Program-made: the position numbers and the translations under genes
Part shown: piece after piece, positions 2 through 53,418 of the stretch
Layout of the letters: each line of letters opens with the position of its first letter
Numbering within the stretch: position 1 is the first letter of the stretch
From: Candidatus Hydrogenedens sp.
GTDB taxonomy: Bacteria > Hydrogenedentota > Hydrogenedentia > Hydrogenedentales > Hydrogenedentaceae
Direction: 5' to 3'
Length of the DNA stretch: 64,000 nt
NCBI GenBank assembly: GCA_049968235.1
Contig: JBMFRC010000005.1
Location: 1 to 64,000, forward strand
Notes under the pieces: generated by a model
Databases searched by the model: none
What the model saw: the letters and a program-made list of their open reading frames with translations, nothing else
Told to the model about the DNA's origin: nothing

Positions 2-118
2 GGTCCACAGGATTGGAAAATAGGTTTGTCTGAATTATTGCGGTTAATACAATTCTTCAATACAGGTGGTTATCACAGTTGCCCAGACAGCGAAGATGGC
101 TACTGTCCTGGATTATAG
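2..118 (+). CDS. 3' fragment (C-terminal 38 aa) of a secreted protein ending in a dockerin/EF-hand-like repeat (..DWKIGLSELLRLIQFFNTGGYHSCPDSEDGYCPGL*)
   Basis: Frame 2 is open from the window edge to TAG at 116-118. The tail is near-identical to the C-terminus of the 868-aa protein at 27690..30266 (IGFTELLRLIQIFNTGGYHYCPGESEDNFCPGL). Confidence 0.5.
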   Translation, partial: GPQDWKIGLSELLRLIQFFNTGGYHSCPDSEDGYCPGL

Positions 119-4067: not shown

Positions 4068-5430
4068 GAATCATGAAATAGGTTTCTTGTTTATTTTCAA
4101 CAGGGCGAATAGTCAGTTTAAGAGTTCCTATTTCTTTTAGGAATTGTTTCCATGGTGAGAAAATCGCAGACATATCTCTTTCATTAATGCCGTTTAACAA
4201 TTCCTGTTTTGCGCACCAGAGAAAGATTTTTTCTATGTCCTCACTAATTTGTGGTATATTGATACTTATTATGTGAGATGTTTCTAAATCTTTTCTATTT
4301 TCATGAAGTTGGGTTATTATTTCTGCCAGAAAAGGTTCCTGAGTGCAAATAATCCATCCTTCTTTATAATAAACGAGAGAAAAACAAAAAGCATTGTTCC
4401 ACGCAGGAACGACATATCCCTCGAAAGAATTCCATTGGTGTGGATAAAATGGCAAATCTAAATCGAGTTCTGATAAGAGTCGCTTAATATCATTACTTTT
4501 ATAAGGGACCCAGAAACCAAAGATAGGAATAGGATTCAAAAATTTGTCTGACATACCCGAATAAAGAAAGACTCCTTTATTTAAAAGTCCTTTATCTCTA
4601 AATTGTAAATATAATTTTTCAGGAAAAGTGTCTTTAAAAGAAGATAAAAATATTAAAACAGGGTTTAAGGCTTTTGGGGGTATAAATGACAAAAGGGTAT
4701 TTTTTAATGAGTTCTCTAAGAGTATATCCTTTAACGGACTACACAAAAGAATGGATGAAATATTAGAATTAGAAAAATCCGAAAAAGGATTAATGTAATC
4801 TTCTGTTCTTCTATTATTAATATGCCCCTCGACAAACAAATTGTTTTCGGAATGAACTGAAAGGGATACTTTAACTTTTTCCCCTAATTCTATATAAGCC
4901 ATATAATTGTTTATACTTAACGGTTTTCTGGAACAAGGGACAACCTGATTTAGAATCGTATCTTTATTACTAATTAAAAGTTCATTCCCTTTCCATATGC
5001 AGTAATATTCTCTGTTATCAATAATATTGTTAGACATATTCCATAAAGATAAAAGAAACAATCGAAATAATCGTCCCGGTTTGATAGATACCAGATAATC
5101 TCCCTGTTTATTCCAACTGATGAGTAAAGGTTTTCCCACCCATAAATACCAGCGGAATGGAGTAGGTCTTATACCCCATTTTTTCCTAAAAAATAGTTCC
5201 ATATTATATAAATATTCAAAAAGATATTTACTTGCAGAGATAGTTATTGGCTGTTTCTTTACAGAACTCCAGAAATAAGGAAAATCTGGAAAATATATGG
5301 ATAAATTGGTATCCTGAATTACATACCCATGAAAACCCTGTTCAGGAGTTAGTATAAAAAAGATAAACCCTATGATACAAAAAGATAGAAAAATAATGAA
5401 TATTAAAAACTTTTTATATCTTCGTTTCAT
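4042..5430 (-). CDS. hypothetical membrane-anchored protein
   Basis: 462 aa with an N-terminal TM (FLIFIIFLSFCIIGFIFFIL). It overlaps the downstream gene by 26 bp, which suggests an operon. Confidence 0.45.
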   Translation of the reverse strand: MKRRYKKFLIFIIFLSFCIIGFIFFILTPEQGFHGYVIQDTNLSIYFPDFPYFWSSVKKQPITISASKYLFEYLYNMELFFRKKWGIRPTPFRWYLWVGKPLLISWNKQGDYLVSIKPGRLFRLFLLSLWNMSNNIIDNREYYCIWKGNELLISNKDTILNQVVPCSRKPLSINNYMAYIELGEKVKVSLSVHSENNLFVEGHINNRRTEDYINPFSDFSNSNISSILLCSPLKDILLENSLKNTLLSFIPPKALNPVLIFLSSFKDTFPEKLYLQFRDKGLLNKGVFLYSGMSDKFLNPIPIFGFWVPYKSNDIKRLLSELDLDLPFYPHQWNSFEGYVVPAWNNAFCFSLVYYKEGWIICTQEPFLAEIITQLHENRKDLETSHIISINIPQISEDIEKIFLWCAKQELLNGINERDMSAIFSPWKQFLKEIGTLKLTIRPVENKQETYFMIRGGFVNEK

Positions 5431-18934: not shown

Positions 18935-20623
18935 TTATACTTTCTTTGCAGGAATAACACAGCGAAAACCAACTGTATTAAGTTTTGATTCCGGGAATAG
19001 TCCCTTGCGTGCTGTGCAGGTAATTCCTTCCGGTCCGGAATTCCAACAGCCACCGCGTAATGTTCTCAGTGGAGGATTGGGAACTGTTTCAGGATGGCTT
19101 CTCGCTATAGGGTAGGGTAGGTAGTAATCTCGTGTCCATTCCATAACATTTCCTGCAAGGTCATAAACACCTTCGGGTGTTTTTCCTTCTTCATGCATGG
19201 TTACAATGGAAGGCATGCCTAAATAATCATTAAAATTGCAATGGATTGTATCGGGTGGTGTATTGCCCCAGGGATATTTCCGATTTTCTTTTCCTCTTGC
19301 GGTGAATTCCCATTCCTTTTCTGAGGGTAACATTTTACCTGCCCATTGTGCATAAGCGTTGGCTTCAAACCATGAAATACCGACAATAGGTTGGTCCGGA
19401 CCGTTCAACATGGGGTCGTACCAATAGCGGGGAAGCGGTGCAGATGTCGCCTCGATATATTTTTTGTATTCTGCAACTGTTACAGGAAAAATATCTATCC
19501 AGAAGGGTTCTACAAATACTTCTTCTTCTGGCGCCTCTTCTGGAACTGCGTTGTTCCCCATAAGAAAATACCCACCCTCGATAAAAACCATATTTTCGGT
19601 AGATATGGCTTTATTCGATTCGGATGAAGTAATAATATGTATGGATTTCTCTTTATAGGAACTTTCAAAACTTTGTTCAAGAGCCATACGGAAATCTCGT
19701 GCCGTTTGCCAACGGTCCTCACGGTCTTCGGCAAGTGCTTTGTTCAGGACATCGTTGATAGATGGTGATATATCATTTCTTGTTTGTAAAAGGGGGACAT
19801 ACTGGTCAACAGGGGAACGTAATGTTAGTAATTCATATAAAATAAGCCCTACGGTATATAAATCAGAGCGTGTATCTGAGGGCCACATCTTCTTTTGCTC
19901 AGGTGAAGCATACGCATAAGTTCCGACAACACTCTGCTGTTGTGAAGGACTGACATTCGCGGTTGCTTGAGATATGGATTCTTCTACTGCAATAGCAAGA
20001 CCAAAATCCAGAACTTTTATCTTTTCTCCCGGCATAACCATAACATTTTCGGGCTTTAAATCACGATGGGTTACCCAACGGTGAGCGTATTCTAATGCCT
20101 GCAGTATTTGCAAGGTAAATTGTATGGCGATTCGTATTGGTAAAAACTGGCGGTCTATCCGTTGCTTTCGTAACATGTTCCGCAGAGATTGTCCTTCTAA
20201 GTATTCCATGCTCAAAAATAAAAACCCTTCGTTTGTATATGCTACATCGTGAACTGCAACAATATTTTCATGTCGTAAACGCCGTGCCAATTGTGCCTCT
20301 TTAATAAATAATTGCCCCGCTTTGGGTGTTTTCAATAAACTGGGATGCAAAAATTTCAACGCTACTACATCATCCAGTAATTCATCACGTGCTTTATACA
20401 CATACCCCATCCCTCCTTTTCCTATGATTCCTTCAATTATATACCGGTCATCAACACGGTCTCCTTCACGAAATTCAATTCGAAGAGATGCATCGTTCCC
20501 CATATTCGGTACCACAATAGGTTGGTGGCAATTAAAACAATAACTCGTTTTCCCTTGCACCACAGCAGGTACCCATATTTTTAAACCACAACTTTTACAT
20601 ATTACAGCAATAATAGGTTGCAT
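18935..20623 (-). CDS. Ser/Thr protein kinase fused to a C-terminal formylglycine-generating-enzyme (FGE-sulfatase) domain, with an N-terminal Zn-ribbon
   Basis: Kinase motifs GKGGMGYVYKA, VALK, HRDLKPEN, DFGLA and SPEQ. The C-terminal region (FIEGGYFLMGNN...RGGCWNS...) is typical of PF03781. N-terminal CKSCG...CFNCHQP. Confidence 0.75.
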   Translation of the reverse strand: MQPIIAVICKSCGLKIWVPAVVQGKTSYCFNCHQPIVVPNMGNDASLRIEFREGDRVDDRYIIEGIIGKGGMGYVYKARDELLDDVVALKFLHPSLLKTPKAGQLFIKEAQLARRLRHENIVAVHDVAYTNEGFLFLSMEYLEGQSLRNMLRKQRIDRQFLPIRIAIQFTLQILQALEYAHRWVTHRDLKPENVMVMPGEKIKVLDFGLAIAVEESISQATANVSPSQQQSVVGTYAYASPEQKKMWPSDTRSDLYTVGLILYELLTLRSPVDQYVPLLQTRNDISPSINDVLNKALAEDREDRWQTARDFRMALEQSFESSYKEKSIHIITSSESNKAISTENMVFIEGGYFLMGNNAVPEEAPEEEVFVEPFWIDIFPVTVAEYKKYIEATSAPLPRYWYDPMLNGPDQPIVGISWFEANAYAQWAGKMLPSEKEWEFTARGKENRKYPWGNTPPDTIHCNFNDYLGMPSIVTMHEEGKTPEGVYDLAGNVMEWTRDYYLPYPIARSHPETVPNPPLRTLRGGCWNSGPEGITCTARKGLFPESKLNTVGFRCVIPAKKV

Positions 20624-27381: not shown

Positions 27382-27689
27382 TAACTTCCTTAAAACATAA
27401 ATTTTATATAATATTTTCTAAATATATATGTCAAATATTTGACATGTTATTTAAATAATAGATAAAATAATATGAAATAAGCAAAAAATATAATAAAAAA
27501 TTTAGTTTTTATTTAGTTGATAAATATTTATTTGCCATTGACTTAGAATTTTATAAAAAAAAAAAAATAATAATGTAAAATAAGTGTAGTTGTGATATAA
27601 TTAAAACATTAGTTTCATGAGAAGGGAATTGTACCTTTGGTTAATAAAGTTACTCAACAGTGAATCAAAAATTTAAAGGAGCAATATTT

Positions 27690-30266
27690 ATGTTAAAAAA
27701 ATTTTTTGAACCATCATTAAAAAATCATGCAGGGATGATAGGGTTATTTTTGATTCTATCATTTTTTGTGATTGTAAACACAGGTTGGTCTGCAATCTTG
27801 ATTGATAATATCGAGGATTTGCAGAAAATCGGAAATGACCCGGAGTATCCGATAAACGAGTCATATGAGTTATCGCAGGATATTGATGCAAGTATCACAT
27901 ATTCCTGGAACGAAGGATCTGGCTTTCAGCCGATAGGGTCGTCATCCAATCCGTTTAGTGGAACTCTGGATGGGAAAGGTTATCAGATTTTTAATTTATA
28001 CATTAACCGTTCCTCGGAGGATTATGTAGGTTTGTTTGGTAGGGTAAGTAGTAACGGAAAAATTCTAAACTTAGGTTTGGAAAATAATATAGTTATTGGT
28101 AAAAACTATGTTGGAGGGCTTATCGGTTCGAATGAAGGTCGTGCTGATACTTGCTATGCCAACGGTTCTGTTTCAGGCACAAATAATGTAGGTGGACTTG
28201 CTGGAAATAATACAGGGACATTGAATAAATGTTATTCTACAAATATAGTTGCTGGTGCTACGACTGTTGGTGGTTTAGCGGGAAGGAATGCCGGCACAAT
28301 TTCCCAATGCTATTCCACAAGTAATGTATCGGGGACATCCGCTGTAGGCGGTCTCATTGGTGCGAATGCAACATGGAACGCATCCCTGCGTAGATGTTAT
28401 GCTGGAGGAAATGTTTCAGGCACATCCAATATCGGCGGACTCATTGGAAGTATGTCGTGGGGCTGGGCATTTGAAACATATTCTATAGGACATGTAAGTG
28501 GCTCCTCAAGAATAGGCGGTCTCGTGGGATACCGTTTCTTCCTTGCATTTATATTCATGAGTTATTGGGATAAGGATACATCCGGTCTTGCCACATCAAG
28601 TGGCGGAACTGCCAAAACAACAGAACAAATGAAACAGCAGTCCACATATACAAATTGGTCTTTTGGTTCTGTATGGGGCATTATTCCCGGTGTAACCTAT
28701 CCATACTTTATCTGGACTTATCCCGTCCCAAATCTCTTAGGTTTAACGGTGGAAGAGGCAAATAGCGTTCTTACCAGCACGGGTTATGTGTTGGGAACGG
28801 TATCTGAACAATGTAGTTTCACTACTCCTGCCGGGTTAATAATGATTCAACAACCATTTCCAGGACAGTATTTAGAACCAGGCAGTCCTGTAAATGTAAC
28901 TATATCTACAGGACCCTGTCCACCAAATACTGTACCTAATGTTGTAGGATTAAAACAATCTATTGCTGAAAATGAGATTGTTTCTGCAGGATATGTTGTG
29001 GGAACAGTAGGAGAACAATGCAATAATACAATTCCTGCGGGTTATGTTATAAGTCAGGAACCTGCTGGGGGTGAGGAATTGGAACCTGGAAATGCGGTCA
29101 ATATTATTGTATCAACAGGTCCATGTCCTATTGCAGTGCCGAATGTGGTGGGTATGACCGAAGAGAATGCGGATGTAACATTAGTATCTGCAGGATTATT
29201 CTTAGGTGTCGTAAGCGAACAATGTAGCGACACTATTCCGCAAGGTAGAATTATCAGTCAGAACCCATTGGCAGGAACACAGGTCATTCCAGGAAGTTAT
29301 GTTGATGTAGTAATATCCTCAGGTCCTTGTGGAGAAGGGACGTCCGAAGGTATTCCTGAAGGAACACTGGAAGGTATAGAAGAAGGTATTGTGGAAGGAA
29401 CTCCGGAAGGTATTCCGGAAGGAGTTGAGGAAGGTATAATTGAAGGAATCCCTGAAGGTATTTTAGAAGGAACACCGGAAGGTGTAGAAGAAGGTATAGT
29501 GGAAGGAACACCGGAAGGAACGCCAGAAGGTTCTATTGAAGGCGAAAATGTAATTACTCCAAATGTTGTTGGGCAACCATTTGTAAATGCGGTATTCGCT
29601 ATTAATAATGCTCAATTGGTAGTCGGTGTAATTACTGAAGTTTGCACTGATGAATACCCGTTTGGTGTTATAATTGCTCAGGAACCTGTTGGTGGTTCGA
29701 TAGTAGAAATCGGGTCTATGGTCAATCTATGGGTATCCATAGGTCCCTGCCCACCTGAAGGAGAAGGAGTTGTTGAAGGGACACCCGAAGGAACACCGGA
29801 AGGTATTCCCGAGGGAGTTGTTGAAGGAACGCCTGAAGGAACACTCGAAGGAGTTGTTGAAGGGACACCCGAAGGAACACCGGAAGGTATTCCCGAGGGA
29901 GTTGTTGAAGGAACGCCTGAAGGTACATCCGAAGGAACCCCAGAAGGTATAGAAGAAGGCGAGGGAGAAATCATAGGAAGACATAGTGCAGACCAGAATA
30001 ACGATAAACGGATAAGTTTTACTGAACTGCTTCGTGTAATTCAATTATTTAATTCCTGGGGCTATCATTGTCAATCTGGAACTGAAGATGGATTTGCTCC
30101 GGGTGCCGGTGGAGATACCTCATGCACTCCACATACTTCTGATTACAATCCCCCTGATTGGAAAATAGGTTTTACTGAGCTACTGCGACTGATACAAATC
30201 TTTAATACGGGTGGCTATCATTATTGTCCGGGAGAAAGTGAAGATAACTTCTGCCCAGGATTGTAA
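27690..30266 (+). CDS. secreted mosaic protein: GLUG-motif repeats + 4 PASTA domains + TPEG/EG low-complexity linkers + twin dockerin/EF-hand-like C-terminal repeats
   Basis: GLUG-type repeats (VGGLIGSNEG..., VGGLAGNNTG..., VGGLAGRNAG..., VGGLIGAN...). Four PASTA-like units (VPNVVGLKQSIAENEIVSAGYVVGTVGEQ...STGP etc.). EGTPEGIPEGVEEG... repeats. C-terminal DQNNDKRISFTELLRVIQLFN... and DWKIGFTELLRLIQIFNTGGYHYC. The likely start is ATG 27690 with RBS AAAGGAG, rather than the ORF-track GTG at 27660. Confidence 0.65.
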   Translation: MLKKFFEPSLKNHAGMIGLFLILSFFVIVNTGWSAILIDNIEDLQKIGNDPEYPINESYELSQDIDASITYSWNEGSGFQPIGSSSNPFSGTLDGKGYQIFNLYINRSSEDYVGLFGRVSSNGKILNLGLENNIVIGKNYVGGLIGSNEGRADTCYANGSVSGTNNVGGLAGNNTGTLNKCYSTNIVAGATTVGGLAGRNAGTISQCYSTSNVSGTSAVGGLIGANATWNASLRRCYAGGNVSGTSNIGGLIGSMSWGWAFETYSIGHVSGSSRIGGLVGYRFFLAFIFMSYWDKDTSGLATSSGGTAKTTEQMKQQSTYTNWSFGSVWGIIPGVTYPYFIWTYPVPNLLGLTVEEANSVLTSTGYVLGTVSEQCSFTTPAGLIMIQQPFPGQYLEPGSPVNVTISTGPCPPNTVPNVVGLKQSIAENEIVSAGYVVGTVGEQCNNTIPAGYVISQEPAGGEELEPGNAVNIIVSTGPCPIAVPNVVGMTEENADVTLVSAGLFLGVVSEQCSDTIPQGRIISQNPLAGTQVIPGSYVDVVISSGPCGEGTSEGIPEGTLEGIEEGIVEGTPEGIPEGVEEGIIEGIPEGILEGTPEGVEEGIVEGTPEGTPEGSIEGENVITPNVVGQPFVNAVFAINNAQLVVGVITEVCTDEYPFGVIIAQEPVGGSIVEIGSMVNLWVSIGPCPPEGEGVVEGTPEGTPEGIPEGVVEGTPEGTLEGVVEGTPEGTPEGIPEGVVEGTPEGTSEGTPEGIEEGEGEIIGRHSADQNNDKRISFTELLRVIQLFNSWGYHCQSGTEDGFAPGAGGDTSCTPHTSDYNPPDWKIGFTELLRLIQIFNTGGYHYCPGESEDNFCPGL
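29330..29960 (+). repeat. in-frame tandem DNA repeats encoding (T/I)PEG/EG linkers (two blocks, 29330-29540 and 29755-29960)
   Basis: Near-identical ~70-bp units, for example gttgttgaagggacacccgaaggaacaccggaaggtattcccgagggagttgttgaaggaacgcctgaagg twice at ~29770 and ~29850. Confidence 0.8.
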
Positions 30267-35103: not shown

Positions 35104-35850
35104 TTATTTCCCGTTTGCAGGAGGGGTAGGGGGCGTTGCAGGAATTTGAAATATTTCGTTAGGAATATCCACACCTGTCTTTACATTTTTATATTCAATG
35201 AGGAACATAGGTGTTGAGTCCTTGCCAATGATTTCCAGTCTCCGGATAATTCCTAAATCGGGGTCCATCAGTACATTTGCGGAAGAAAAATCTCCGCCGG
35301 GTCCTTCTTTTGGTTCGAGTTTTAGTTTTATCATTTTCTTACCGTCCCATTCTGTTTCAGGTTCTACTGTAATATTCATCTTCTCTTTGACAGCATCGAA
35401 CATTTTCTTCCCTCCGATAGGAATTGCCCCTTTGGTAATGTCAGGTGATGTTTTGATGGTGTCTGTAACAGCAAGTAGTTGGTAAGTAACAAAAAATTCT
35501 TTGCCATCGAAAATCACTGTGGCTTTTGCAATAGGCGTATTTAATAGTGCTGAATTTCCAGATTCTACCGCTGAAGCAGGGAACGCAGAAAGTTTCTGGG
35601 CAAATTTCTCATTATCCCCATCACGCTTGATGAATAATTCTCCAATCCCCTTTAACTTCATAGTATTGGTATTATTTATGGGGAAATTAGCATCCGCTCC
35701 TACATCTGCTTTAACAGTTTTTTGTTTTTCCCATGCAGAAATTAACTTTGTAGATACTTCATCCAGAGATGCTTCCGCAAAGGTTAGCATAGAAAAGGAA
35801 CATAAAAGAATAAGGGTTAAACAATGGGTTTTGTTGAAGTGTTTTAGCAT
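35104..35850 (-). CDS. hypothetical secreted protein (LolA/outer-membrane-lipoprotein-sorting-like fold suspected)
   Basis: Signal peptide. Length 248 aa. No catalytic motif. Confidence 0.4.
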   Translation of the reverse strand: MLKHFNKTHCLTLILLCSFSMLTFAEASLDEVSTKLISAWEKQKTVKADVGADANFPINNTNTMKLKGIGELFIKRDGDNEKFAQKLSAFPASAVESGNSALLNTPIAKATVIFDGKEFFVTYQLLAVTDTIKTSPDITKGAIPIGGKKMFDAVKEKMNITVEPETEWDGKKMIKLKLEPKEGPGGDFSSANVLMDPDLGIIRRLEIIGKDSTPMFLIEYKNVKTGVDIPNEIFQIPATPPTPPANGK

Positions 35851-40615: not shown

Positions 40616-40856
40616 CTATTCTTCCCTAAATAAAACATTTTATACATTAAACAAGTTCCTTTATTATAATTATTCTCCAATATAGATTTCTTAACAGCAA
40701 TAAATCGAGAATACATTACCTATGTTCATTTACATTATTTATAATTTGTTTTTACTTATTTATGGAGTTTAGTCTATTGAAATAGCATAAGATTCTCATT
40801 TATCATGCATATATGATTTAATATAATCATTGAACCAAACACTGGAGGGTTTGAAA

Positions 40857-43106
40857 GTGGAAATTATTGACCTGGATGTAAAAGCATATAAGAAACAATC
40901 CCCTTATCGCACGGTATTTAGTTTTATTTTAGGTGTGTTAGTTGGAATCGCCTTGTTTTATATGTATTTACAATTCAATCCTCCTCCGAAAGAAACACCT
41001 CCTCCTATTCCACCAACAAGCCCAACCGCAGAAGTACCCAGGGAAAAAGCACCAAAACCCGCAGAACAAACTCAGGTAAATGAGGAACAAAAATTACTTG
41101 CTGAATTAGAGACAATTTCTCCTTTTATTTATATTGTGAACGAAAATAAGTTTTCGGATTCAACAATAGATATGCTAAATCAGATTCGCCCTTTTGCCAT
41201 AGTTGTAAAGCCAGACCAAGGAAGCAGTGATAAAGATAAATTTTTGAATTTACTACAAAATATCCGTGACAGGGTGCGGAGCAATGTCCCTGATTTACCG
41301 CTCCTGGCTATGGACCTTGATTTCCATTTCTTGCAGTCTTTGCCTGAGTTTCAACAATTACCGAAACTTACTGATTTTAATACAAGCACAGATATAATAA
41401 AAATAACGGATGCAGGTAATTTATATGCCCAAAAAATTCGTGAATGGGGCATCTCCATGCTATTTGGACCTATGATAGAAATTTATGTAACGGGACGGGT
41501 CCCGGAAATAGAAAAGGGAAATTATATTGGAGATACGACAGAAGCAATACAATGGATAGGGTTATCCTTCAGTCAGGGAATCTGGCAAGGAAAAGTAGCA
41601 CCAGTAATCAAGAGTTTCCCCAGCAAAACACTTGCGGGTAAAAAAGAGGTAGATGGTAAAGTCTGTTTTGCACTGGAAGTTGACAAAGCCGGCGAAGATA
41701 TGAATCAAGCCATATCGCAATTGGCTACATGGTTGTTCCCATTCTCGGAAGCGGTTTATCAAAATCTACCCGCACTGTTAGTATCTCATGTATCCATACC
41801 TTTACTGGATGATGAAAATCCTTATCTACCTGCAACTGTATCACAAAAAATTATTTATGGTTTAATTCGTGGGAAATGGGGTTATGATGGTATTATTATC
41901 GCTGATGATATAGCCGAGTATCCTTTAAATGGAACGACAAGCTATTCAGATGTGGCTTTGCAAATGATAGGTGTAGGTATAGACCTGATTTGTTCTTCTC
42001 TGGAAGACGCAATTGAAATGACAAAGATGGTTACTATGATTGAACAAAATATTTCCAGGGAAGCCAAAGAAAAGAGGTGTATGCGATTAGCCAGATTAAT
42101 GTCAGCAGTTTGTCCCCTTCCTAAAAAAGAAAAACAAGAAATGGCACCCTCTGTAGAGCCAGTTCTAACCGCACAGCAATCACAAACATCTTCCCCCGTT
42201 ATAGAAACATCAACACCTCCTTCCTCAGAAAAATCTCCTGTAGAAACAACGGAAACTTCATCTGCATCTCATCAAGAACCTATTGCACCTCCTACGGAAA
42301 TTGAAACTACTCAGGCTGAAACAACTACAGAATCTACTCCAGTGGATAGCAATGTAACACTTTCTCCAAATACCCAGCCTACAGAGACAAGTATTGCTCA
42401 AGACCTAACGCAAATTGCTACAGAAAAAAAAGAAGAAACTGTAAAAACGGCTATGGAACCCCCAAAAGAAGATGTTGAGCCAGAGGAACAAAAATCTGCT
42501 CCCTCCAAAGAAATAACTGAAATTAAATCTATTGAAAAAGCTCCCCAACCCCCAGGGACAAAAGAAATAAAACATAAAATTGTGCGAGGCGAAACTTTAT
42601 ACAACATCGCTCAGAAATACCAGGTAAAGCCCAAAGACCTTATGGCATGGAATGGAATACAAGACCCTAACCTTATTAAATATGGATTACATTTAGTTGT
42701 ATATGTTCCTCAAGGGATAGAAGTGAAACAACAACCTGAAAAGACGATTACTACACAGGAAAAAACCAAAACACCCCCTGCTGAAAAACCTGCTCCTATA
42801 ACTTTACCTGAGGTAGAAAATAAAGCCAGTACTACAGATACACAAACAACACCTGCAACTACAACCACAGAGGAAAAAACTAATAGTGGCGAAACCGTAC
42901 CTCAGGAATCTTCAAGCCCTTCATCTCCAACAGGAGAGACTATTATATACACAGTGAAATATGGCGATACCCTCGATTCTATAGCACGGGATATGCGTGT
43001 AACGAAAGAGGAAATTATCCAACTTAACAATTTAAAGAAGCCCTATCTTCTACCCGCAGGTAGGAAACTGAAAGTCCCGCGTGTTCCCAAGATAGGGTTC
43101 AATTAA
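40857..43106 (+). CDS. membrane-anchored protein with a glycosidase-like middle domain, a long P/T/E-rich linker and two C-terminal LysM domains
   Basis: LysM units HKIVRGETLYNIAQKYQVKPKDLMAWNG... and YTVKYGDTLDSIARDMRVTKEEIIQLNN.... N-terminal TM. The start is ambiguous: GTG 40857 with GGAGGG RBS, or TTG 40830 as in the ORF track. Confidence 0.6.
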   Translation: MEIIDLDVKAYKKQSPYRTVFSFILGVLVGIALFYMYLQFNPPPKETPPPIPPTSPTAEVPREKAPKPAEQTQVNEEQKLLAELETISPFIYIVNENKFSDSTIDMLNQIRPFAIVVKPDQGSSDKDKFLNLLQNIRDRVRSNVPDLPLLAMDLDFHFLQSLPEFQQLPKLTDFNTSTDIIKITDAGNLYAQKIREWGISMLFGPMIEIYVTGRVPEIEKGNYIGDTTEAIQWIGLSFSQGIWQGKVAPVIKSFPSKTLAGKKEVDGKVCFALEVDKAGEDMNQAISQLATWLFPFSEAVYQNLPALLVSHVSIPLLDDENPYLPATVSQKIIYGLIRGKWGYDGIIIADDIAEYPLNGTTSYSDVALQMIGVGIDLICSSLEDAIEMTKMVTMIEQNISREAKEKRCMRLARLMSAVCPLPKKEKQEMAPSVEPVLTAQQSQTSSPVIETSTPPSSEKSPVETTETSSASHQEPIAPPTEIETTQAETTTESTPVDSNVTLSPNTQPTETSIAQDLTQIATEKKEETVKTAMEPPKEDVEPEEQKSAPSKEITEIKSIEKAPQPPGTKEIKHKIVRGETLYNIAQKYQVKPKDLMAWNGIQDPNLIKYGLHLVVYVPQGIEVKQQPEKTITTQEKTKTPPAEKPAPITLPEVENKASTTDTQTTPATTTTEEKTNSGETVPQESSSPSSPTGETIIYTVKYGDTLDSIARDMRVTKEEIIQLNNLKKPYLLPAGRKLKVPRVPKIGFN

Positions 43107-45394: not shown

Positions 45395-48300
45395 TTAGTT
45401 AGTATTTGCTCTTTTCCTTCTGAGGACGAAGAACATTCCTACACCCGTCATTGTGATGAACATCAAATCACCAAGGTAATTGGGCACGCCTTCTGTTGGC
45501 GAACAAGAGATGAACAGGAATCTGCGCTTTGGCTTGTAACCTTCACCAGTAAGGTCAACATACACCTCTTTCGCAGGGGAGACACCATCCGATACAACGA
45601 ATAGCACCTTACCGGCATATGTTCCAACTTTTTTCGGAGCAAATGCAACTTCAACATACTTTGTTTCGCCGGAAGGTATCTCTATGTTCGCGGTCTCGAA
45701 TGTTACTGCAAATACATTATTGGCTGTATCCTTGACATCTATTGCTACATTGACAGGAATCTTACCTTTGTTTGCAAGGACAATCTTCTGCTTGTATGTC
45801 TTTTCTATTAACTGCTTACCAAAGTCAACGACAAGTGGCGTTATGGATAGATTTCCAGTTACCACTATAGGAGCCTCTTTTACAACAACTTTTCTACTAA
45901 CTTGTGCCTTATTGCCTGATGGGTCTTGTGCAGAGTAAACAAGTTCGTATGTAGCAGGAACACTGGTATTTACTTTACCAGATACCTGAACATTAAGATC
46001 TCCTGCACAGGCATCCGTCGCAGTTGCACCCGGGTCGTTAAAGGCTTGTCCTACCTGAATTTCGATTGTGCTATTTCCATTCAGGGTTATTGTCGGTTTC
46101 TGAGTATCAACGATACGAATAACACGCGTCTTAGAATCGGAATTACCTGAAGCATCAAAGGCTGTATAGGTCAGCGTATATTCACCCGGTACATTCACAT
46201 TTACACTACCAACGGTTTGTACTTCTAAGTTTCCACTACATCCATCTGTAGCCGTTGCACCTGGGTCGTTAAATGTAGACTTACATTCTAATACTACTTC
46301 CGAACTACCCAGTAGTGTTACCACCGGTTTTGTAGTATCTACGACATTGACGGTCCGGGTTACAGGTGTTGCGGAATTTCCTGAAGCATCTGCTGCCGTG
46401 TATGTAATTGTATATGAACCAATTACATTTGTATCTACGGTACCTGTAACAGAAACAGTAACCTGCGTGTCACATGTATCGCTTGCTGTTGCACCCGGGT
46501 CAGTAAAGTTAGACTTGCATTCTACACTAATCGTGTTTTCACCTAATAAAGTGATAACTGGTTTTGTAGTATCTACAATCTTAACGGGCATGTCTTTTGA
46601 TGACTTATTGCCAGAATCGTCCTCTGCCACATAGCGGACTACATATCCTTTTCCTGCAGAAGATGTATCTATCGTATAGACTTGATACATTGTTAAAGCA
46701 TCATATATCGCCGCTGCAGTTAGAACTTGTGTAACGCTACCACAGGAATCAATGGCGGTTGCTCCCGGATCTGTAAACACATCATTGCACTCAATGGTCA
46801 TTTCCTCTTGGTTAAGTGTTATTACAGGTGATGTAGTATCTACAATCTTAACGGGCATGTCTTTTGATGACTTATTGCCAGAATCGTCCTCTGCCACATA
46901 GCGGACTACATATCCTTTTCCTGCAGAAGATGTATCTATCGTATAGACTTGATACATTGTTAAAGCATCATATATCGCCGCTGCAGTTAGAACTTGTGTA
47001 ACGCTACCACAGGAATCAATGGCGGTTGCTCCCGGATCTGTAAACACATCATTGCACTCAATGGTCATTTCCTCTTGGTTAAGTGTTATTACAGGTGATG
47101 TAGTATCAATTATGTTAACCAACATATCTGCTTCTGATCTATTTTCAGAATTATCTGTGGCTACATAGCGGACTTTATATGTTTTGCCTACTGCACTTGT
47201 ATCAATGGCTTCTACCTCTTTATCACCATAAATAGCATCGACTTCATATATTGTTGCTGCAGTTAAAACAAGAGGTATTCCACCTTCGCATTTATCTAAT
47301 GCTGTTGCACCGGGGTCTGTAAATATACCATTGCACTCAATAGTCATTTCCTCTTGATTTAATGTAATTTCAGGACCTTGTGTATCTACAACATGAATTG
47401 TTCTTGTTTTACTTGCGCTATTATTAGCATTATCAACGGCTGTATATGTAAGTGTGTAATCACCTACCTGATTATCATATACATATCCGCTAACAATAAC
47501 ATCTAAAATACCGGAACATACATCCTCCGCAGTTGCACCCGGATCTACGAAGTTCAATCCACATTCATGAGTAATCTCACTGGCACCATTTAAGGTTACG
47601 GTAGGAGCCTGCGTATCTACTACATTCACGGTACGTATTGCTTGTCCTATTTTTCCAGCACGGTCTGTTGCCGTGTAAGTAATCTGGTAACTGCCTACCT
47701 GATTTGTATTAACAATACCTGTCTTATTTACTGTCAAGTTACCATCGCAAGCATCCGTAGCCGTTGCACCCGGGTCAGTAAATACAGAACCACACTGTAC
47801 TGTAAGCGGGTTAGCACCAACTATAGTTACTGTAGGTGGCAGATTATCGCTCACATTAACGACACGAGTCCTTGTTGCTGTATTTCCATTTGCATCAGTC
47901 GCCGTATAGGTTATTGTATATTGACCTGGCTCATTTGCATTGACCACGGTTGCCGAATTATTTGTAACCGATACAGTGCCCTGGCATGTGTCACTTGCGG
48001 TTGCACCCGGGTCATAATATACACTATGACATTCAAGGGCATAAGGATTCGGTCCTATAAGCGTAATTACGGGAGGTGTCGTATCTACAACCTTAACGGT
48101 GCGTATTACAGGGTCTGCATTATTGCCTGAATCATCCGCAGCGGTATAGGTTAATGTATACTCGCCAACAGCGTTAGTATCCACAGTCCCTGATACATTC
48201 ACTCCTACATTGGTATCGCAACTATCCGTCGCAGTTGCACCCGGGTCATTAAATGTTGATTTACACTCCACCACTAATGGATTGTCTCCTAATAAGTTTA

Positions 48301-49909
48301 TTACCGGTTTCGTTGTATCTACTACATGAACTATTCTTTGGGCTGTTACTGTATTATTGGAACTGTCGGTAACAGAATAATCAACAGTGTAATCACCCGG
48401 TACTGCTGTATTTACATTATTTGTTACCTCAATTTGAGCGGTTAAATCACCATCCGGAATATCTGTCGCTGTTGCTCCAGCATCAACATATGTCGTACCG
48501 CATTCAACTGTTACCTCCGCCTCTCCTAATAATGTCAAAACTGGCGGTGTATCGTCTATTAACTCACTTACTGCAATATCACTCAATAACTCGCCACCAC
48601 TCAAACGATACTTCGCACGTCCTGTAATTGTCTGTGGTCCCGAAGAACTTTCACTGGCTTTCATACGATATGTAAACGATGCACCTTGCCCCGTTAAATT
48701 CGGAACAAAAATATATGCAAAGGATAAGGTGCCTGTCGCTCCATAATTCGGGACTATCGGCGGTGTCGGATTCTCACTTGCCAACGGTCCTTCATATGTC
48801 CAACCCGCAGGGATAAATTCTTCATATCCTAATGCGGTTACTGAACTCGTACATGGACTATCCGGATTAATACGAATATTTATTGTAACTTCAACAACTT
48901 CACCTGGAATATAGTAGTTCCTCGTAAAACTCCGACTAACCAATAAGCAAGGAACTGCACCATCCAATTGCGTTTCCACTTTGGGTGAAAGTATGGCATC
49001 GCCACAGGTGCGATATACAACCGCACTCGATTTTGTCTCAGAATCCTCAACGATCTCTCCTCCTATAACGGCAATCCCTGTATATGAAATCGGAACATTT
49101 ACAATATAAGTAAATTCCGCAGGAAATGAAGGAACTGTAGTATATGCGAATTCTAACAAACCTGTTTTTCCTATTGTAGGCTCAACCGGCAGACTGCCTC
49201 CCTGCAATCCCTGATATGTCCAGCCTGCAGGTAATGTGTCCTGGAAACCTAATGCAGTTATTGGCTGAGGACCTTCCTTCTCTATACGAATGGTTACATA
49301 AATATTCTGACCCGGAATATAAAAATTATTGTTTACACCCGATATCCCCGGACCGGATAATTCACGTGTAAAGGAAAGACTTGTCGGCTCTAATTGAATA
49401 ACATTTATCGTAGGAGCGCTCTCTAATTGAGGTCCACTTGTGCGATACAAAACCTTACCTTGAAGTTGCCCTGGCTCGCAAATAGTAGGAGGACAGGCAA
49501 TTCGGTAGGTAAAGGTTGCCGGGAATGATGGAACAAAGATGTATGCAAAATTCAGTGTTCCTGTTTGATTCGCATTTGGGACGATAGGGGGTGTAGGATT
49601 TTCACTGGCTAATGGACCTGAATATGAAAAGCCCGGCGGAATTTGCTCCTCATATCCTAAAGCGGTAATTGTCCCTTCGGAATTATCATAATTTATCGTA
49701 ACTTGAACAGATAACTCCGCAGTGCCATTGACAAAATAACCATTAGCATCCAGCCCCGTTATCTGTTTTGTTACTGTTACCAATCCCTGGGCACTCATCG
49801 TTACCACAAGGAATCCCACCATCAGTAAACATACAGAGATGGTTGTGCGTGTGCTTGTTAAACTTACAATAGAGTTTCCTGCTTTCATTTTTTTGCCTCC
49901 ACTGTTCAT
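45395..49909 (-). CDS. giant surface protein: N-terminal signal, 3 long beta-rich repeats, ~13 DUF5011-like Ig domains (...C.s.F.DPGATAtD...G.YtvtYtA.D.sGN...), C-terminal PEP-CTERM-like TM+RRKR tail
   Basis: Repeating ~85-90-aa units carrying DPGATATD. C-terminus SPTEGVPNYLGDLMFITMTGVGMFFVLRRKRANTN*. The likely start is MKAGN (~49888) with a GGAGG RBS. Confidence 0.7.
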   Translation of the reverse strand: MNSGGKKMKAGNSIVSLTSTRTTISVCLLMVGFLVVTMSAQGLVTVTKQITGLDANGYFVNGTAELSVQVTINYDNSEGTITALGYEEQIPPGFSYSGPLASENPTPPIVPNANQTGTLNFAYIFVPSFPATFTYRIACPPTICEPGQLQGKVLYRTSGPQLESAPTINVIQLEPTSLSFTRELSGPGISGVNNNFYIPGQNIYVTIRIEKEGPQPITALGFQDTLPAGWTYQGLQGGSLPVEPTIGKTGLLEFAYTTVPSFPAEFTYIVNVPISYTGIAVIGGEIVEDSETKSSAVVYRTCGDAILSPKVETQLDGAVPCLLVSRSFTRNYYIPGEVVEVTINIRINPDSPCTSSVTALGYEEFIPAGWTYEGPLASENPTPPIVPNYGATGTLSFAYIFVPNLTGQGASFTYRMKASESSSGPQTITGRAKYRLSGGELLSDIAVSELIDDTPPVLTLLGEAEVTVECGTTYVDAGATATDIPDGDLTAQIEVTNNVNTAVPGDYTVDYSVTDSSNNTVTAQRIVHVVDTTKPVINLLGDNPLVVECKSTFNDPGATATDSCDTNVGVNVSGTVDTNAVGEYTLTYTAADDSGNNADPVIRTVKVVDTTPPVITLIGPNPYALECHSVYYDPGATASDTCQGTVSVTNNSATVVNANEPGQYTITYTATDANGNTATRTRVVNVSDNLPPTVTIVGANPLTVQCGSVFTDPGATATDACDGNLTVNKTGIVNTNQVGSYQITYTATDRAGKIGQAIRTVNVVDTQAPTVTLNGASEITHECGLNFVDPGATAEDVCSGILDVIVSGYVYDNQVGDYTLTYTAVDNANNSASKTRTIHVVDTQGPEITLNQEEMTIECNGIFTDPGATALDKCEGGIPLVLTAATIYEVDAIYGDKEVEAIDTSAVGKTYKVRYVATDNSENRSEADMLVNIIDTTSPVITLNQEEMTIECNDVFTDPGATAIDSCGSVTQVLTAAAIYDALTMYQVYTIDTSSAGKGYVVRYVAEDDSGNKSSKDMPVKIVDTTSPVITLNQEEMTIECNDVFTDPGATAIDSCGSVTQVLTAAAIYDALTMYQVYTIDTSSAGKGYVVRYVAEDDSGNKSSKDMPVKIVDTTKPVITLLGENTISVECKSNFTDPGATASDTCDTQVTVSVTGTVDTNVIGSYTITYTAADASGNSATPVTRTVNVVDTTKPVVTLLGSSEVVLECKSTFNDPGATATDGCSGNLEVQTVGSVNVNVPGEYTLTYTAFDASGNSDSKTRVIRIVDTQKPTITLNGNSTIEIQVGQAFNDPGATATDACAGDLNVQVSGKVNTSVPATYELVYSAQDPSGNKAQVSRKVVVKEAPIVVTGNLSITPLVVDFGKQLIEKTYKQKIVLANKGKIPVNVAIDVKDTANNVFAVTFETANIEIPSGETKYVEVAFAPKKVGTYAGKVLFVVSDGVSPAKEVYVDLTGEGYKPKRRFLFISCSPTEGVPNYLGDLMFITMTGVGMFFVLRRKRANTN
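46566..47100 (-). repeat. perfect 2 x 267-bp tandem duplication inside the giant gene (duplicates one Ig-like domain, 89 aa)
   Basis: An identical segment is repeated: PVITLNQEEMTIECNDVFTDPGATAIDSCGSVTQVLTAAAIYDALTMYQVYTIDTSSAGKGYVVRYVAEDDSGNKSSKDMPVKIVDTT. The DNA unit starting ...gtagtatctacaatcttaacgggcatgtc... occurs at 46566 and again at 46833. Confidence 0.85.
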
Positions 49910-51688: not shown

Positions 51689-52489
51689 CTAAATTTTACC
51701 TAACACACCTCTATCCTGCATCTTTTGACATAATACCCTTTTTCCCTTTTCCGTCAAATTGTCTAAAATATCTTTCCTCCGTAGTACTGTGATTACCTGG
51801 TTTGTGTCAAGATTTTTTACCACTTTTAAGTCTCCCTCTCCCAATTCTTCAGCAACTTGTTTACCTAATCCCGGATGCTTCGCTTCCACTTCTAAAATCT
51901 CTTTACCAAATGTCTTCACCAAAGGCACAAGTTCATCACCACGATTTAACATCGCTTTTATTGCTTTTTTGCCCGTCTCTTCCGGGACTTCTTTCAAAAT
52001 ACGTAATGTTTGCGATAAGCCATATTTCCGTGCCACTAAAAACACATCATCCCCATGTTTTAACATTTGCTCACCCAATTCTTTAAGTAACTTCTTCGCT
52101 CCTTCCTCTCCAACTTCTTGTACAGTACGTTCTGCCAATTCTTCAGCTGCCTCTTTTCCCAGTTTTTTCCCGATATTTTCAGCAATTTCCTGCCCACCTT
52201 TCTTATCTATATATTCCATAACTTCTCTTACTATCCCTTTTGCTACAGCAGAGCCAACTCCCGCATGGGTATTCAGATTAACCAAAAGAATCCCTACCAA
52301 AACGAACAAACTCAATACAAAGACCCTCTCAATTCTCATAGAACAATTCCTCAAATTACATGTATCACTCTCTTGCTTACTCATACCTTTTCCTCCTTCT
52401 TTACTGTTTACATGTTTCATTGTTTTTGGATAAAAACTCATATCGATTCTCCTCCGTTCATCATTTATTGTATATGTGTTTTTCATCAT
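51689..52489 (-). CDS. hypothetical membrane-anchored K/E/G-rich protein
   Basis: TM VFVLSLFVLVGILLV, then a charged helical region. The antisense ORF 51759..52433 is low-complexity and was rejected. Confidence 0.35.
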   Translation of the reverse strand: MMKNTYTINDERRRIDMSFYPKTMKHVNSKEGGKGMSKQESDTCNLRNCSMRIERVFVLSLFVLVGILLVNLNTHAGVGSAVAKGIVREVMEYIDKKGGQEIAENIGKKLGKEAAEELAERTVQEVGEEGAKKLLKELGEQMLKHGDDVFLVARKYGLSQTLRILKEVPEETGKKAIKAMLNRGDELVPLVKTFGKEILEVEAKHPGLGKQVAEELGEGDLKVVKNLDTNQVITVLRRKDILDNLTEKGKRVLCQKMQDRGVLGKI

Positions 52490-52963
52490 CTGTTCTCCTA
52501 TGCTACTTTATTTCTTCATTGTACCCGTCCCTCTTTTAGACTCCAATTGTTTATATGTATTGTTATAAATTCTGTTTTTTATAACTAATCACTTTTGTTT
52601 TTTATTTACATCTATATTCATAATTTATCTATATTCATAATTTATCCTTCTTATTTTTGCTTCAATGAATTCATATTCAATTGTTGTTCTATTGATAACA
52701 ATCTCTGTGCCAACTGAATATATTTTTGATGAAATATATTCATGTTATTTATTAGCAATGAGATACAATATAATTGCGGTTTGGGAAATATTCTCTCTTC
52801 CCATTCCTTTCCCAAAATATGTAAAGAAGGATTTAAATCTTTTAAATTTCCTTTACGCCCATCACTTAGAAAACTCAACGAAATACTACACAACATAACA
52901 TCTATTTTCTTTTCCTCCATTTTGTCATTTAACCCGTTCATAAATTCCTCCTCTTCCTCCTCC

Positions 52964-53170
52964 TTATTTCCTATTCCGATATAATGCACTTATGCCCCTT
53001 GCCACAAAATAAAAAGATATACCCGAACCAACCAAAACAGAAAATAACCATATTACATTACAAAAAGCATTAGCTACCTTAATCCCTAATATCGATAAAA
53101 CAATCCCAACTATTATAACTATTTCCGATGATAATATCGCTTTTAATCCGCTTATAATTATACTCATCAT
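52964..53170 (-). CDS. small membrane protein (68 aa, 2 TM)
   Basis: Translationally coupled (ATGA) to the upstream 83-aa membrane protein. Confidence 0.3.
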   Translation of the reverse strand: MMSIIISGLKAILSSEIVIIVGIVLSILGIKVANAFCNVIWLFSVLVGSGISFYFVARGISALYRNRK

Positions 53171-53418
53171 ATCTTGTCCTCCTTATTTCTTAAGGTTTGT
53201 GTTGCAATATAAAAAACTACATGTATTCCCGCTATTACTCCACACAAAACTATTAACCAAAATATCATCTTCATTAACAAACTCATTACCTTCATTCCTA
53301 CAAAAAACACCGCAACTCCTATGGCTAACTTACCTAAAGGATGCACAGATCCCACATATTTCCAGATATTTTCAATAAACCACTTCATTGCACCCCTGAT
53401 ACTTTCCCATTTTTTCAT
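53167..53418 (-). CDS. small membrane protein (83 aa, 2 TM)
   Basis: Hydrophobic helices LAIGVAVFFVGMKVMSLL and IFWLIVLCGVIAGIHVVFYI. Confidence 0.3.
   Translation of the reverse strand: MKKWESIRGAMKWFIENIWKYVGSVHPLGKLAIGVAVFFVGMKVMSLLMKMIFWLIVLCGVIAGIHVVFYIATQTLRNKEDKI

What the first reader, a model, noticed from the sequence alone, without database searches (positions are those of the whole stretch)
27690..30266. Unusual mosaic secreted protein: GLUG repeats + four PASTA domains (with no kinase or PBP) + TPEG linkers + twin dockerin/EF-hand-like Cys-containing C-terminal module
PASTA domains are normally attached to PknB-type kinases or class-B PBPs and sense muropeptides. Here four PASTA units (...VPNVVG...G.V.GTV.EQC....P.G.vISQ.P..G....G..V...vStGPCP) are combined with GLUG-motif repeats (VGGLIG.N.G....CY..G.VSGT) typical of secreted M26/IgA-protease-like proteins. 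Each PASTA unit also carries a conserved Cys pair (EQC...GPC), suggesting disulfide-stabilised extracytoplasmic PASTA. The C-terminus has two ~32-aa repeats, DQNNDKRISFTELLRVIQLFNSWGYHCQ and DWKIGFTELLRLIQIFNTGGYHYC...EDNFCPGL. The first has a canonical EF-hand/dockerin Ca-loop (D-x-N-x-D-x-x-I-x-x-x-E-L).
Basis: partly seen in the sequence, partly recalled or inferred. Interest (0 to 1): 0.7.

Follow-up and report, generated by a model that had tools for sequence, protein, structure and literature searches.

The report
Dockerin-like calcium tag on Hydrogenedentota exoproteins
The gene encodes a real secreted, non-enzymatic surface protein whose domain mix is routine in its uncultured phylum (Hydrogenedentota); the notable part is its C-terminal calcium-binding module, an undescribed dockerin-like tag shared by thousands of secreted proteins there and probably used to dock them to a common, still unknown receptor.

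Summary
ORF 27690..30266 (+) encodes 858 aa: a Sec signal peptide, a GLUG beta-helix, three PASTA units, an (EGxx)n linker, a fourth PASTA unit, a second linker, and a 95-aa duplicated C-terminal module. PASTA (180 bits) and GLUG (35 bits) both pass Pfam thresholds. The GLUG region models as the non-catalytic beta-helix of M26 IgA1 proteases, and there is no protease, kinase or PBP domain.

The mosaic is not unusual in context. GLUG+PASTA proteins are common in Candidatus Hydrogenedens relatives, and 19 of 72 tag-bearing proteins carry the same Cys-pair PASTA just before the linker and tag.

Best reading: a Ca-dependent docking tag for an unidentified common receptor. Rival: a sorting signal. 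No partner was identified.

The parts
27676..27681 (+). Ribosome-binding site AAGGAG, 8 nt upstream of the ATG, at the end of a ~300-bp AT-rich intergenic region
   Evidence: Read directly from the sequence
27690..27794 (+). Sec-type signal peptide, aa 1-35 (MLKKFF...IVNTGWSA|ILID). There is no lipobox Cys.
   Evidence: Sequence features. The N-terminus matches orthologue P0047. The cleavage site is inferred, not predicted with a tool.
27795..28724 (+). GLUG beta-helix domain, aa 36-345. It has six ~26-aa VGGLxG...CY..G.VSG turns and resembles the non-catalytic N-terminal domain of M26 IgA1 proteases.
   Evidence: Pfam Glug 35.2 bits. AF2 pLDDT 98.0, pTM 0.94, all-beta solenoid. Foldseek PDB: 3n6z E = 9e-8 and TM 0.64, plus 7uvk and 6xja IgA1 protease.
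28725..29333 (+). PASTA units 1-3 (aa 346-411, 415-480, 483-548), each with a Cys pair (EQC ... GPC)
   Evidence: Pfam PASTA 180.4 bits, 4 stretches. PDB sequence hit to S. aureus Stk1 PASTA 3py9, E = 4e-16. Cys positions. Cys-pair co-variation.
29334..29549 (+). Acidic linker 1, (E-G-x-x)n, aa 549-620, encoded by 12-nt tandem repeats
   Evidence: TRF arrays at 29346-29531. Composition E22 G19 of 74 residues.
29556..29753 (+). PASTA unit 4 (aa 623-688) with Cys pair 652/687
29754..29975 (+). Acidic linker 2, (E-G-T-P / E-G-V-V)n, aa 689-762
   Evidence: TRF arrays at 29763-29959
29979..30263 (+). C-terminal twin Ca-loop/helix/beta-hairpin module (the tag), aa 764-858. Repeat 1 is aa 765-805 (nt 29982-30104) and repeat 2 is aa 815-857 (nt 30132-30260). 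Invariant Cys are 794, 812, 846 and 855.
2..118 (+). 3' end of a second tag-bearing gene, cut by the window edge (...DWKIGLSELLRLIQFFNTGGYHSCPDSEDGYCPGL*)
   Evidence: Six-frame motif search

Best explanation
The gene encodes a Sec-exported, non-catalytic surface or adhesin-type protein of a Candidatus Hydrogenedens-like bacterium.

Shown:
- It has a signal peptide, a GLUG beta-helix 'head' homologous to the non-catalytic N-terminal domain of M26 IgA1 proteases, and four PASTA units.
- It has two acidic (EGxx)n spacers.
- It has a C-terminal module made of two duplicated units, each a Ca-loop, a helix and a beta-hairpin.
- That module is shared, nearly invariant, by thousands of otherwise unrelated secreted proteins of the phylum.

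Inferred:
- Each PASTA unit is locked by a co-varying Cys pair, probably a disulfide.
- The module binds Ca2+ through its two EF-type loops, folds like a dockerin (F-hand pair), and docks the protein non-covalently to one common receptor at the cell surface. The receptor could be a cohesin-like protein or an envelope glycan and has not been identified.
- The acidic linkers hold the passengers away from the docking point.
- In this protein the PASTA stalk and beta-helix head provide ligand binding, plausibly to peptidoglycan or glycan material, rather than catalysis or signalling.
For: Domain identities.

No catalytic, kinase or transmembrane part: Pfam lists only PASTA, Glug and low-complexity artefacts.

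The tag is an ordered, duplicated Ca-loop+helix fold:
- AF2 gives pLDDT 94.4, with one helix per repeat starting at loop position 10 and no entering helix, which is the dockerin F-hand layout.
- Loop 1 is a canonical EF loop.
- 19 of 41 members hit EF-hand models and 8 of 41 hit Dockerin_1, best E = 4.4e-6.

Tag-like distribution:
- At least 592 genomic matches, dozens per MAG.
- 3,102 clusters at 50% identity.
- 74 different Pfam families among 52 passengers.
- Signal peptides and EG linkers in nearly all carriers.

One common partner is implied because R, Q and N of ELLRxIQFxN, and many other residues, are at least 99% invariant across 86 paralogues whose passengers are unrelated.

Docking rather than export signal:
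- The module also occurs directly after the signal peptide followed by the linker (P0209, P0247), internally and in several copies (P0166, P0168), and on TM-anchored proteins of CPR and DPANN organisms.
- 16 of the 150 best representatives do not have it at the C-terminus.

GLUG relatives in other phyla carry a T9SS tail in the equivalent position, so this position is where localisation modules go.
Against: - No partner was identified. No cohesin or other candidate appears among about 20 window genes scanned.
- Loop position 12 is Glu (EF-hand-like) rather than the Asp usual in dockerins (from general knowledge).
- Each repeat carries an extra Cys/His-rich beta-hairpin that dockerins lack.
- The strong C-terminal bias (134 of 150) also fits a sorting signal.
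- Ca2+ binding, the disulfides and surface localisation are all untested.
- I could not inspect model coordinates, so the claim that the invariant R/Q/N face is exposed is inference.
Confidence: 0.5

Rival explanations
1. The C-terminal module is a sorting or secretion signal, functionally analogous to the T9SS C-terminal domain. A dedicated outer-membrane translocon or processing enzyme would recognise it, and it might be cleaved and replaced by a covalent anchor.
For: - 134 of the 150 best representatives carry it at the extreme C-terminus.
- There are dozens of copies per genome, on diverse Sec-dependent passengers.
- Sequence invariance is extreme, as expected for recognition by one machine.
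- Homologous GLUG proteins in other phyla carry a T9SS tail (PF18962) in the same position.
Against: - Bona fide copies sit directly after the signal peptide with a mirrored tag-linker-passenger order (P0209, P0247).
- Other copies are internal or tandem (P0166, P0168), or on TM-anchored CPR and DPANN proteins. A strictly C-terminal export signal would not work in those positions.
- The fold is a Ca-binding helix pair, not the beta-sandwich of known C-terminal sorting domains.
- No sorting machinery was identified.
Confidence: 0.22
2. The module is a Ca2+-dependent glycan- or envelope-binding (lectin-like) domain. It would attach proteins to LPS, capsule, S-layer glycan or to substrate or prey surfaces, rather than to a protein scaffold.
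For: - Aromatic residues next to the Ca-binding loops are invariant (Y56, W61, Y80, F/Y39, F91).
- The module occurs at the distal end of TM-anchored surface proteins in episymbiotic CPR and DPANN lineages. Those proteins are already anchored, so the module must bind something else.
- No cohesin was seen in the window.
Against: No structural match to any lectin or CBM, and no binding data. This overlaps with the best explanation and differs only in the nature of the receptor.
Confidence: 0.18
3. The protein is a muropeptide or beta-lactam sensor, or a peptidoglycan-synthesis factor, like PknB/Stk1 or PBP2x. This is the conventional reading of PASTA domains.
For: The PASTA units are genuine and most similar to the Stk1/PknB extracellular domains.
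Against: - There is no kinase, transpeptidase or transmembrane segment after the signal peptide.
- In this phylum the same Cys-type PASTA is fused to many unrelated secreted passengers, usually as a stalk next to the linker and tag.
- NCBIfam PknB_PASTA_kin scores 144.8 bits against a cut-off of 450.
Confidence: 0.05
4. The protein is an M26-type IgA1-protease-like metallopeptidase.
For: The GLUG beta-helix is structurally closest to the N-terminal domains of IgA1 proteases. Some homologues carry PF05342, Peptidase_M26_N.
Against: Only the non-catalytic N-terminal beta-helix is present. There is no Peptidase_M26_C or any other peptidase hit, and the rest of the protein is fully accounted for by PASTA, linkers and tag.
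Confidence: 0.02

Closest known systems
Type I dockerin modules of cellulosomes (Pfam PF00404), e.g. C. cellulolyticum Cel5A dockerin 2vn5_B and the C. thermocellum double dockerin 8x39_B
   Same: - It is a tandem duplication of a Ca-binding loop followed by a single helix (an F-hand pair), with internal two-fold sequence symmetry.
- It is usually C-terminal behind a flexible linker, with dozens of copies per genome on diverse secreted proteins.
- Dockerins are the best structural neighbours, and some family members hit PF00404 weakly.
   Different: - Each repeat is about 42 aa instead of about 22, because of an added beta-hairpin bracketed by invariant Cys and His.
- Loop position 12 is Glu, and the second loop has 13 residues.
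- No cohesin partner is known.
- The host is an uncultured phylum, not a cellulolytic Firmicute.
EF-hand Ca2+-binding domains (PF00036, PF13405, PF13202, PF13499)
   Same: Loop 1 is canonical, D-x-[ND]-x-[DN]-x-x-[IV]-x-x-x-E, with the exiting helix starting at position 10. About half of the family members give weak EF-hand hits. A profile search against PDB finds only EF-hand proteins (hippocalcin E = 0.009).
   Different: - All hits on this protein are below the curated thresholds.
- The model has no entering helix.
- The setting is extracellular, and the module carries Cys-rich hairpins.
T9SS C-terminal domain (PF18962) and other C-terminal sorting tags
   Same: The genomic logic is the same: one conserved terminal module on many unrelated Sec-dependent exoproteins. 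GLUG homologues in other phyla carry PF18962 where this protein carries the tag.
   Different: The fold is unrelated (helical Ca-binding pair versus beta-sandwich). The module is not strictly C-terminal. No cognate machinery is known.
PASTA domains of PknB/Stk1 kinases and class B PBPs (PF03793; 3py9, 2kui)
   Same: Clear sequence homology: 180 bits in Pfam and E = 4e-16 to the S. aureus Stk1 PASTA region. The units are arranged as tandem beads.
   Different: - There is no kinase or PBP.
- The protein is secreted rather than membrane-anchored.
- Each unit has a lineage-specific co-varying Cys pair that is absent from Stk1.
- The units are used as a generic stalk on many passengers in this phylum.
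N-terminal beta-helix domain of M26 IgA1 proteases and BACOVA_03286 (3n6z, 7uvk, 6xja; GLUG motif PF07581)
   Same: Same beta-solenoid fold built from GLUG repeats (Foldseek E = 9e-8, TM 0.64).
   Different: There is no metalloprotease domain. The helix is fused to PASTA units and the Ca-binding tag.

Membership tests
PASTA (PF03793) | Score above the Pfam gathering threshold; repeated ~65-aa units | tested here: met
   180.4 bits against 23.2, in 4 stretches. Homology to the Stk1 PASTA structure 3py9, E = 4e-16.
PknB/Stk1-type PASTA kinase (NF033483) | Cytoplasmic Ser/Thr kinase domain plus TM helix plus extracellular PASTA; NCBIfam cut-off 450 bits | tested here: not met
   144.8 bits, and only model positions 365-563 (the PASTA part) match. 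No Pkinase hit.
GLUG motif proteins (PF07581) | Score above the Pfam gathering threshold; beta-helix built of GLUG turns | tested here: met
   35.2 bits against 20.5. AF2 beta-solenoid with pLDDT 98. Best match 3n6z, E = 9e-8.
M26 IgA1 metalloprotease | Catalytic Zn-metallopeptidase domain (Peptidase_M26_C) | tested here: not met
   No peptidase family in the Pfam scan at E <= 1. The rest of the sequence is fully assigned to PASTA, linkers and tag.
Dockerin type I (PF00404) | Match to the Dockerin_1 profile above threshold | tested here: not met
   No hit at E <= 1 for the full protein or at E <= 0.1 for the isolated module (part A). 8 of 41 family members hit weakly, best E = 4.4e-6 (part B).
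Dockerin type I (PF00404) | Duplicated Ca-binding loop plus single helix (F-hand) with internal symmetry | tested here: met
   The two halves are 56% identical, E = 3e-15. The AF2 model has one helix per repeat after each loop and no entering helix. Loop residues are conserved.
Dockerin type I (PF00404) | Three-dimensional similarity to solved dockerins | tested here: inconclusive
   [not shown]
Dockerin type I (PF00404) | A cohesin partner encoded in the same genome, and Ca-dependent cohesin binding | not testable with these tools
   No cohesin among about 20 window proteins scanned.
EF-hand (PF00036, PF13405, PF13499) | Helix-loop-helix with a 12-residue loop; score above the gathering threshold | tested here: not met
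   Loop 1 is canonical, but EF-hand_1 scores 16.2 bits against 25.4. There is no entering helix in the model, and loop 2 has 13 residues.
T9SS C-terminal sorting domain (PF18962) | Match to the Por_Secre_tail profile; strictly C-terminal beta-sandwich | tested here: not met
   No Pfam hit. The fold is a helical Ca-binding pair. N-terminal and internal copies exist.

The most novel reading that the evidence does not exclude
The tag, the acidic linker and (often) the Cys-PASTA stalk together form the address cassette of a previously unrecognised exoproteome display or assembly system that spans the phylum Hydrogenedentota. This would be functionally a Gram-negative 'cellulosome-like' or T9SS-like organisation, built on a new dockerin-derived Ca2+ module. 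Its receptor would be neither a canonical cohesin nor any known sorting machinery. Simpler relatives of the module would be used by CPR bacteria and DPANN archaea on their attachment proteins.
Probability: 0.3. Interest if true: 0.75.

Novelty: new variant of a known kind. Interest (0 to 1): 0.55.

Why it matters
Hydrogenedentota are globally distributed, uncultured and thought to live by degrading polymers and necromass. How they organise their large secreted proteome is unknown.

A single near-invariant module on thousands of their secreted hydrolases and adhesins gives three things:
- a handle for defining that exoproteome computationally, because an HMM would annotate several thousand 'hypothetical' proteins;
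- a bait for finding the receptor or scaffold;
- a possible new orthogonal Ca-dependent docking pair for protein engineering.

It also shows PASTA domains used as generic, Cys-pair-bearing extracellular stalks, outside the kinase and PBP context in which they are normally interpreted. The repetitive linkers explain why these genes are systematically fragmented in MAGs and therefore overlooked.

Tried and rejected
- **Curated models for the tag.** Pfam and NCBIfam have no dedicated model. The FliH (NCBIfam) and Yae1_N (Pfam) hits fall on the E/G-rich linkers and are low-complexity artefacts.
- **Tag profile against PDB sequences.** Only marginal EF-hand hits, E >= 0.009.
- **Foldseek of the tag against PDB.** Nothing significant (E > 3). 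I use it only for the enrichment of dockerins among the top hits.
- **Partner search in the window.** Pfam scans of 20 neighbouring or large ORFs found no cohesin or obvious scaffold, and no operon logic. The neighbours are DUF6259, DUF4838, an MFS transporter, GH5, Fe-S and FAD oxidoreductases, LytB and GH3+LysM.
- **Synteny with the orthologous contig.** It is partly conserved but gave no partner clue.
- **Literature.** Hydrogenedentes+dockerin, general Hydrogenedentota papers, GLUG+PASTA, and noncellulosomal dockerin-like modules. None describes the module.
- **Strand-skewed region at 52-54 kb.** I suspected another minus-strand EG-linker gene. It contains only small Lys/Glu-rich ORFs and is unrelated.
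- **Zn site versus disulfides.** The invariant HC...CxxH and HxC...C residues could form a Zn site instead of disulfides.
- **PknB-like sensor and M26 protease readings.** Both rejected for lack of the defining catalytic domains.
Full report

Yes. The window has one long ORF at 27660/27690..30266 on the + strand. The ATG at 27690 has an AAGGAG ribosome-binding site 8 nt upstream, after about 300 bp of AT-rich intergenic DNA. The N-terminus of the closest full-length orthologue (P0047, 77% identical, 820 aa) matches this start.

Pfam gives PASTA at 180.4 bits (threshold 23.2, four stretches) and Glug at 35.2 bits (threshold 20.5). Reading the translation directly shows:
- six GLUG-type turns of about 26 aa;
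- four PASTA units, each with two Cys exactly 35 residues apart;
- two (E-G-x-x)n linkers;
- a duplicated C-terminal module.

The linkers are 12-nt tandem arrays at the DNA level. The two halves of the C-terminal module are 56% identical over 43 aa, E = 3e-15. Pfam Dockerin_1 does not hit the protein. EF-hand_1 is sub-threshold.

**2. Organism and context**

The protein is 100% identical to two partial proteins from a Candidatus Hydrogenedens sp. MAG: P0046 (717 aa, N-terminal part) and P0001 (139 aa, C-terminal part). In that public assembly the gene is broken in the repetitive linker. The window holds it intact.

The neighbouring genes are functionally unrelated: DUF6259, DUF4838, an MFS transporter, GH5, Fe-S and FAD oxidoreductases, LytB and GH3+LysM. 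The gene looks monocistronic. The orthologous contig is partly syntenic.

**3. The passenger**

Residues 36-345 model with very high confidence (pLDDT 98.0, pTM 0.94) as a beta-solenoid. The best solved matches are a B. ovatus 'putative IgA1 protease' fragment (3n6z, E = 9e-8, TM 0.64) and the N-terminal beta-helix domains of G. haemolysans and S. pneumoniae IgA1 proteases (7uvk, 6xja). No peptidase domain is present.

The PASTA region is homologous to the extracellular part of S. aureus Stk1 (3py9, E = 4e-16). There is no kinase, PBP or membrane anchor. NCBIfam PknB_PASTA_kin reaches only 144.8 of the 450 bits required, and only over its PASTA part.

The Cys pair is absent from Stk1 (alignment). 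It co-varies across 160 homologous units in which both columns are present: 113 have both Cys, 30 have neither, 17 have only the second and none has only the first. Fisher p is about 1e-20, but the paralogues are not independent. This fits a disulfide that staples each unit, but it is an inference.

**4. Is the mosaic unusual?**

Not in this phylum. The passenger search returned 3,954 hits. Dozens of the top 120 clusters combine PF07581 and PF03793, and these are already named 'PASTA domain-containing protein [Candidatus Hydrogenedens sp.]'.

PASTA is also fused there to Flg_new_2, PhoPQ_related and FGE-sulfatase passengers. Among 72 complete tag-bearing proteins, 19 have this Cys-type PASTA, mostly as a tandem pair immediately before the linker and tag. 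All three PASTA proteins on the orthologous contig end in the tag. So passenger-PASTA(n)-linker-tag is a recurrent cassette.

**5. The C-terminal module is the real finding**

*Coverage by existing resources.* No Pfam or NCBIfam model covers it. None of the literature searches found a description.

*Abundance.*
- A second gene, at the very start of the window, ends in it.
The best 80 are all in Hydrogenedentota MAGs, with more than 25 loci each from two MAGs.
- An exhaustive profile search of 1.84 billion cluster representatives found 3,102 proteins at E <= 1e-3 and 2,754 at E <= 1e-10.

*Carriers.* They are 200-2,500 aa long and have N-terminal signal peptides and EG-rich linkers. Their passengers are extremely diverse, with 74 Pfam families in 52 proteins. 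These include proteases C1 and M6, proprotein-convertase P domains, LRR, Ig, FG-GAP, beta-propellers, beta-helices, CHRD, InlB-B repeats, PASTA and GLUG.

*Conservation.* Across 86 paralogous copies the module is almost invariant. D5, E16, L17, L18, R19, Q22, N25, C31, E36, D37, C49, D55, Y56, W61, E67, L69, R70, Q73, N76, C83, D89 and C92 are at least 99% conserved.

**6. Fold of the module**

AF2 with a 41-sequence alignment gives pLDDT 94.4 and pTM 0.85. Each repeat is an unstructured Ca-type loop, one helix that starts at loop position 10, and a beta-hairpin. No helix precedes the loop. This is the F-hand layout of dockerins, not the helix-loop-helix of classical EF-hands.

- Loop 1 is a canonical 12-residue EF loop ending in Glu.
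- Loop 2 (D-Y-N-P-Q-D-W-x-I-x-L-S-E) has one extra residue.
- The four invariant Cys bracket the two hairpins. They could be disulfides or, together with the invariant neighbouring His, a metal site. I could not inspect coordinates to decide.

I therefore treat the module as a divergent, extended relative of the dockerin/EF-hand class. It is not a member of PF00404.

**7. How it most likely works**

Near-invariance of one small module on hundreds of unrelated exoproteins per lineage implies recognition by one common partner. Two readings compete: a docking module or a sorting signal.

Evidence favouring docking:
- Genuine copies lie directly after the signal peptide, followed by the EG linker and then the passenger (P0209 with LRR, P0247 with a sulfatase-like domain).
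- Internal and multiple copies occur in a 2,552-aa Hydrogenedentota LRR protein (P0166).
- A triple tandem occurs in P0168.
- Divergent copies sit on TM-anchored surface proteins of a Nanoarchaeota MAG and a Ca. Buchananbacteria MAG.
- Of the 150 best representatives, 134 carry the module at the C-terminus, 6 at the N-terminus and 10 internally.

A position-independent, linker-flanked, duplicated Ca-binding module behaves like a dockerin. The strong C-terminal bias, and the fact that homologous GLUG proteins in other phyla carry a T9SS tail in the same place, keep the sorting-signal rival alive.

The receptor is unknown. It could be a cohesin-like protein or an envelope glycan. No candidate was seen in the window.

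For this particular protein I infer a non-catalytic binding or adhesin role. The beta-helix would be the head, the PASTA units a stalk with possible peptidoglycan or glycan affinity, and the acidic linkers extended spacers.

**8. Range outside the phylum**

A profile built only from the divergent copies again retrieved mostly Hydrogenedentota fragments. It also found one Paceibacterota 'EF-hand domain-containing protein' and one Kiritimatiellae MAG protein. In these divergent forms the first Cys pair and the two HxxD histidines remain invariant, while the second Cys pair is usually lost. The fold is therefore broader than the phylum, but the large expansion as a tag is in Hydrogenedentota.

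**9. Verdict**

The 'unusual mosaic' framing is not supported, because this is a standard architecture in its phylum.

The undescribed element is the dockerin-like Ca-binding tag family, which I rate as a new variant of a known kind. It has at least 3,100 clusters and no curated model. It points to an uncharacterised exoproteome-anchoring or sorting system in an uncultured phylum. The mechanism (Ca-dependent docking to a common receptor) is inferred at about 50% confidence. Partner identity, Ca binding, disulfides and localisation all remain to be tested.

Noticed in passing
window 2-118 (+): This is the 3' end of another gene, cut by the window edge. It ends in the same C-terminal tag (...DWKIGLSELLRLIQFFNTGGYHSCPDSEDGYCPGL*), so the 64-kb window holds two tagged genes.
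   Followed up: partly
window 29346-29531 and 29763-29959; public proteins P0046 and P0001: The 12-nt (EGxx) tandem arrays appear to break short-read assemblies. The identical gene in the public Ca. Hydrogenedens MAG is split into a 717-aa and a 139-aa partial protein on two contigs. Most database hits to the tag are short 'partial' proteins at contig ends. Tagged genes are therefore probably systematically under-annotated.
   Followed up: partly
window 18935-20623 (-): This ORF fuses a Ser/Thr protein kinase domain to an FGE-sulfatase (formylglycine-generating-enzyme-like) domain. It has no PASTA. FGE-sulfatase+PASTA+tag proteins also exist among the homologues (P0054, P0058).
   Followed up: no
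window 45395-49909 (-): A 1,504-aa surface protein with eight Bact_surface_Ig-like repeats plus HYR and Cep192/ASH-type Ig domains. It does not end in the tag, so not all large exoproteins of this genome use it.
   Followed up: no
window 40830-43106 (+): A GH3-family glycosidase fused to two C-terminal LysM (peptidoglycan-binding) domains. This is another secreted protein here with a cell-wall-binding module, which fits a peptidoglycan or necromass-scavenging lifestyle.
   Followed up: no
window 52000-54000: GC skew is strongly negative (-0.47) here. The region holds only small Lys/Glu-rich minus-strand ORFs and one 17-nt repeat of 2.2 copies (52610-52646). There is no linker-type array and no link to the finding.
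   Followed up: partly
P0168, P0173, P0175, P0274, P0285 (proteins): Divergent copies of the module occur in tandem (three copies in P0168) or at the N-terminal, distal end of proteins with C-terminal TM anchors and Cys/Asp-rich regions. The sources include a Nanoarchaeota MAG and a Ca. Buchananbacteria MAG. In these forms helix 1 is variable while helix 2 keeps SELLRLxQFYN.
   Followed up: partly
window 2262-4067 (-), 4042-5430 (-), 35104-35850 (-): Three sizeable ORFs (601, 462 and 248 aa) have no Pfam match at E <= 1e-3.
   Followed up: no
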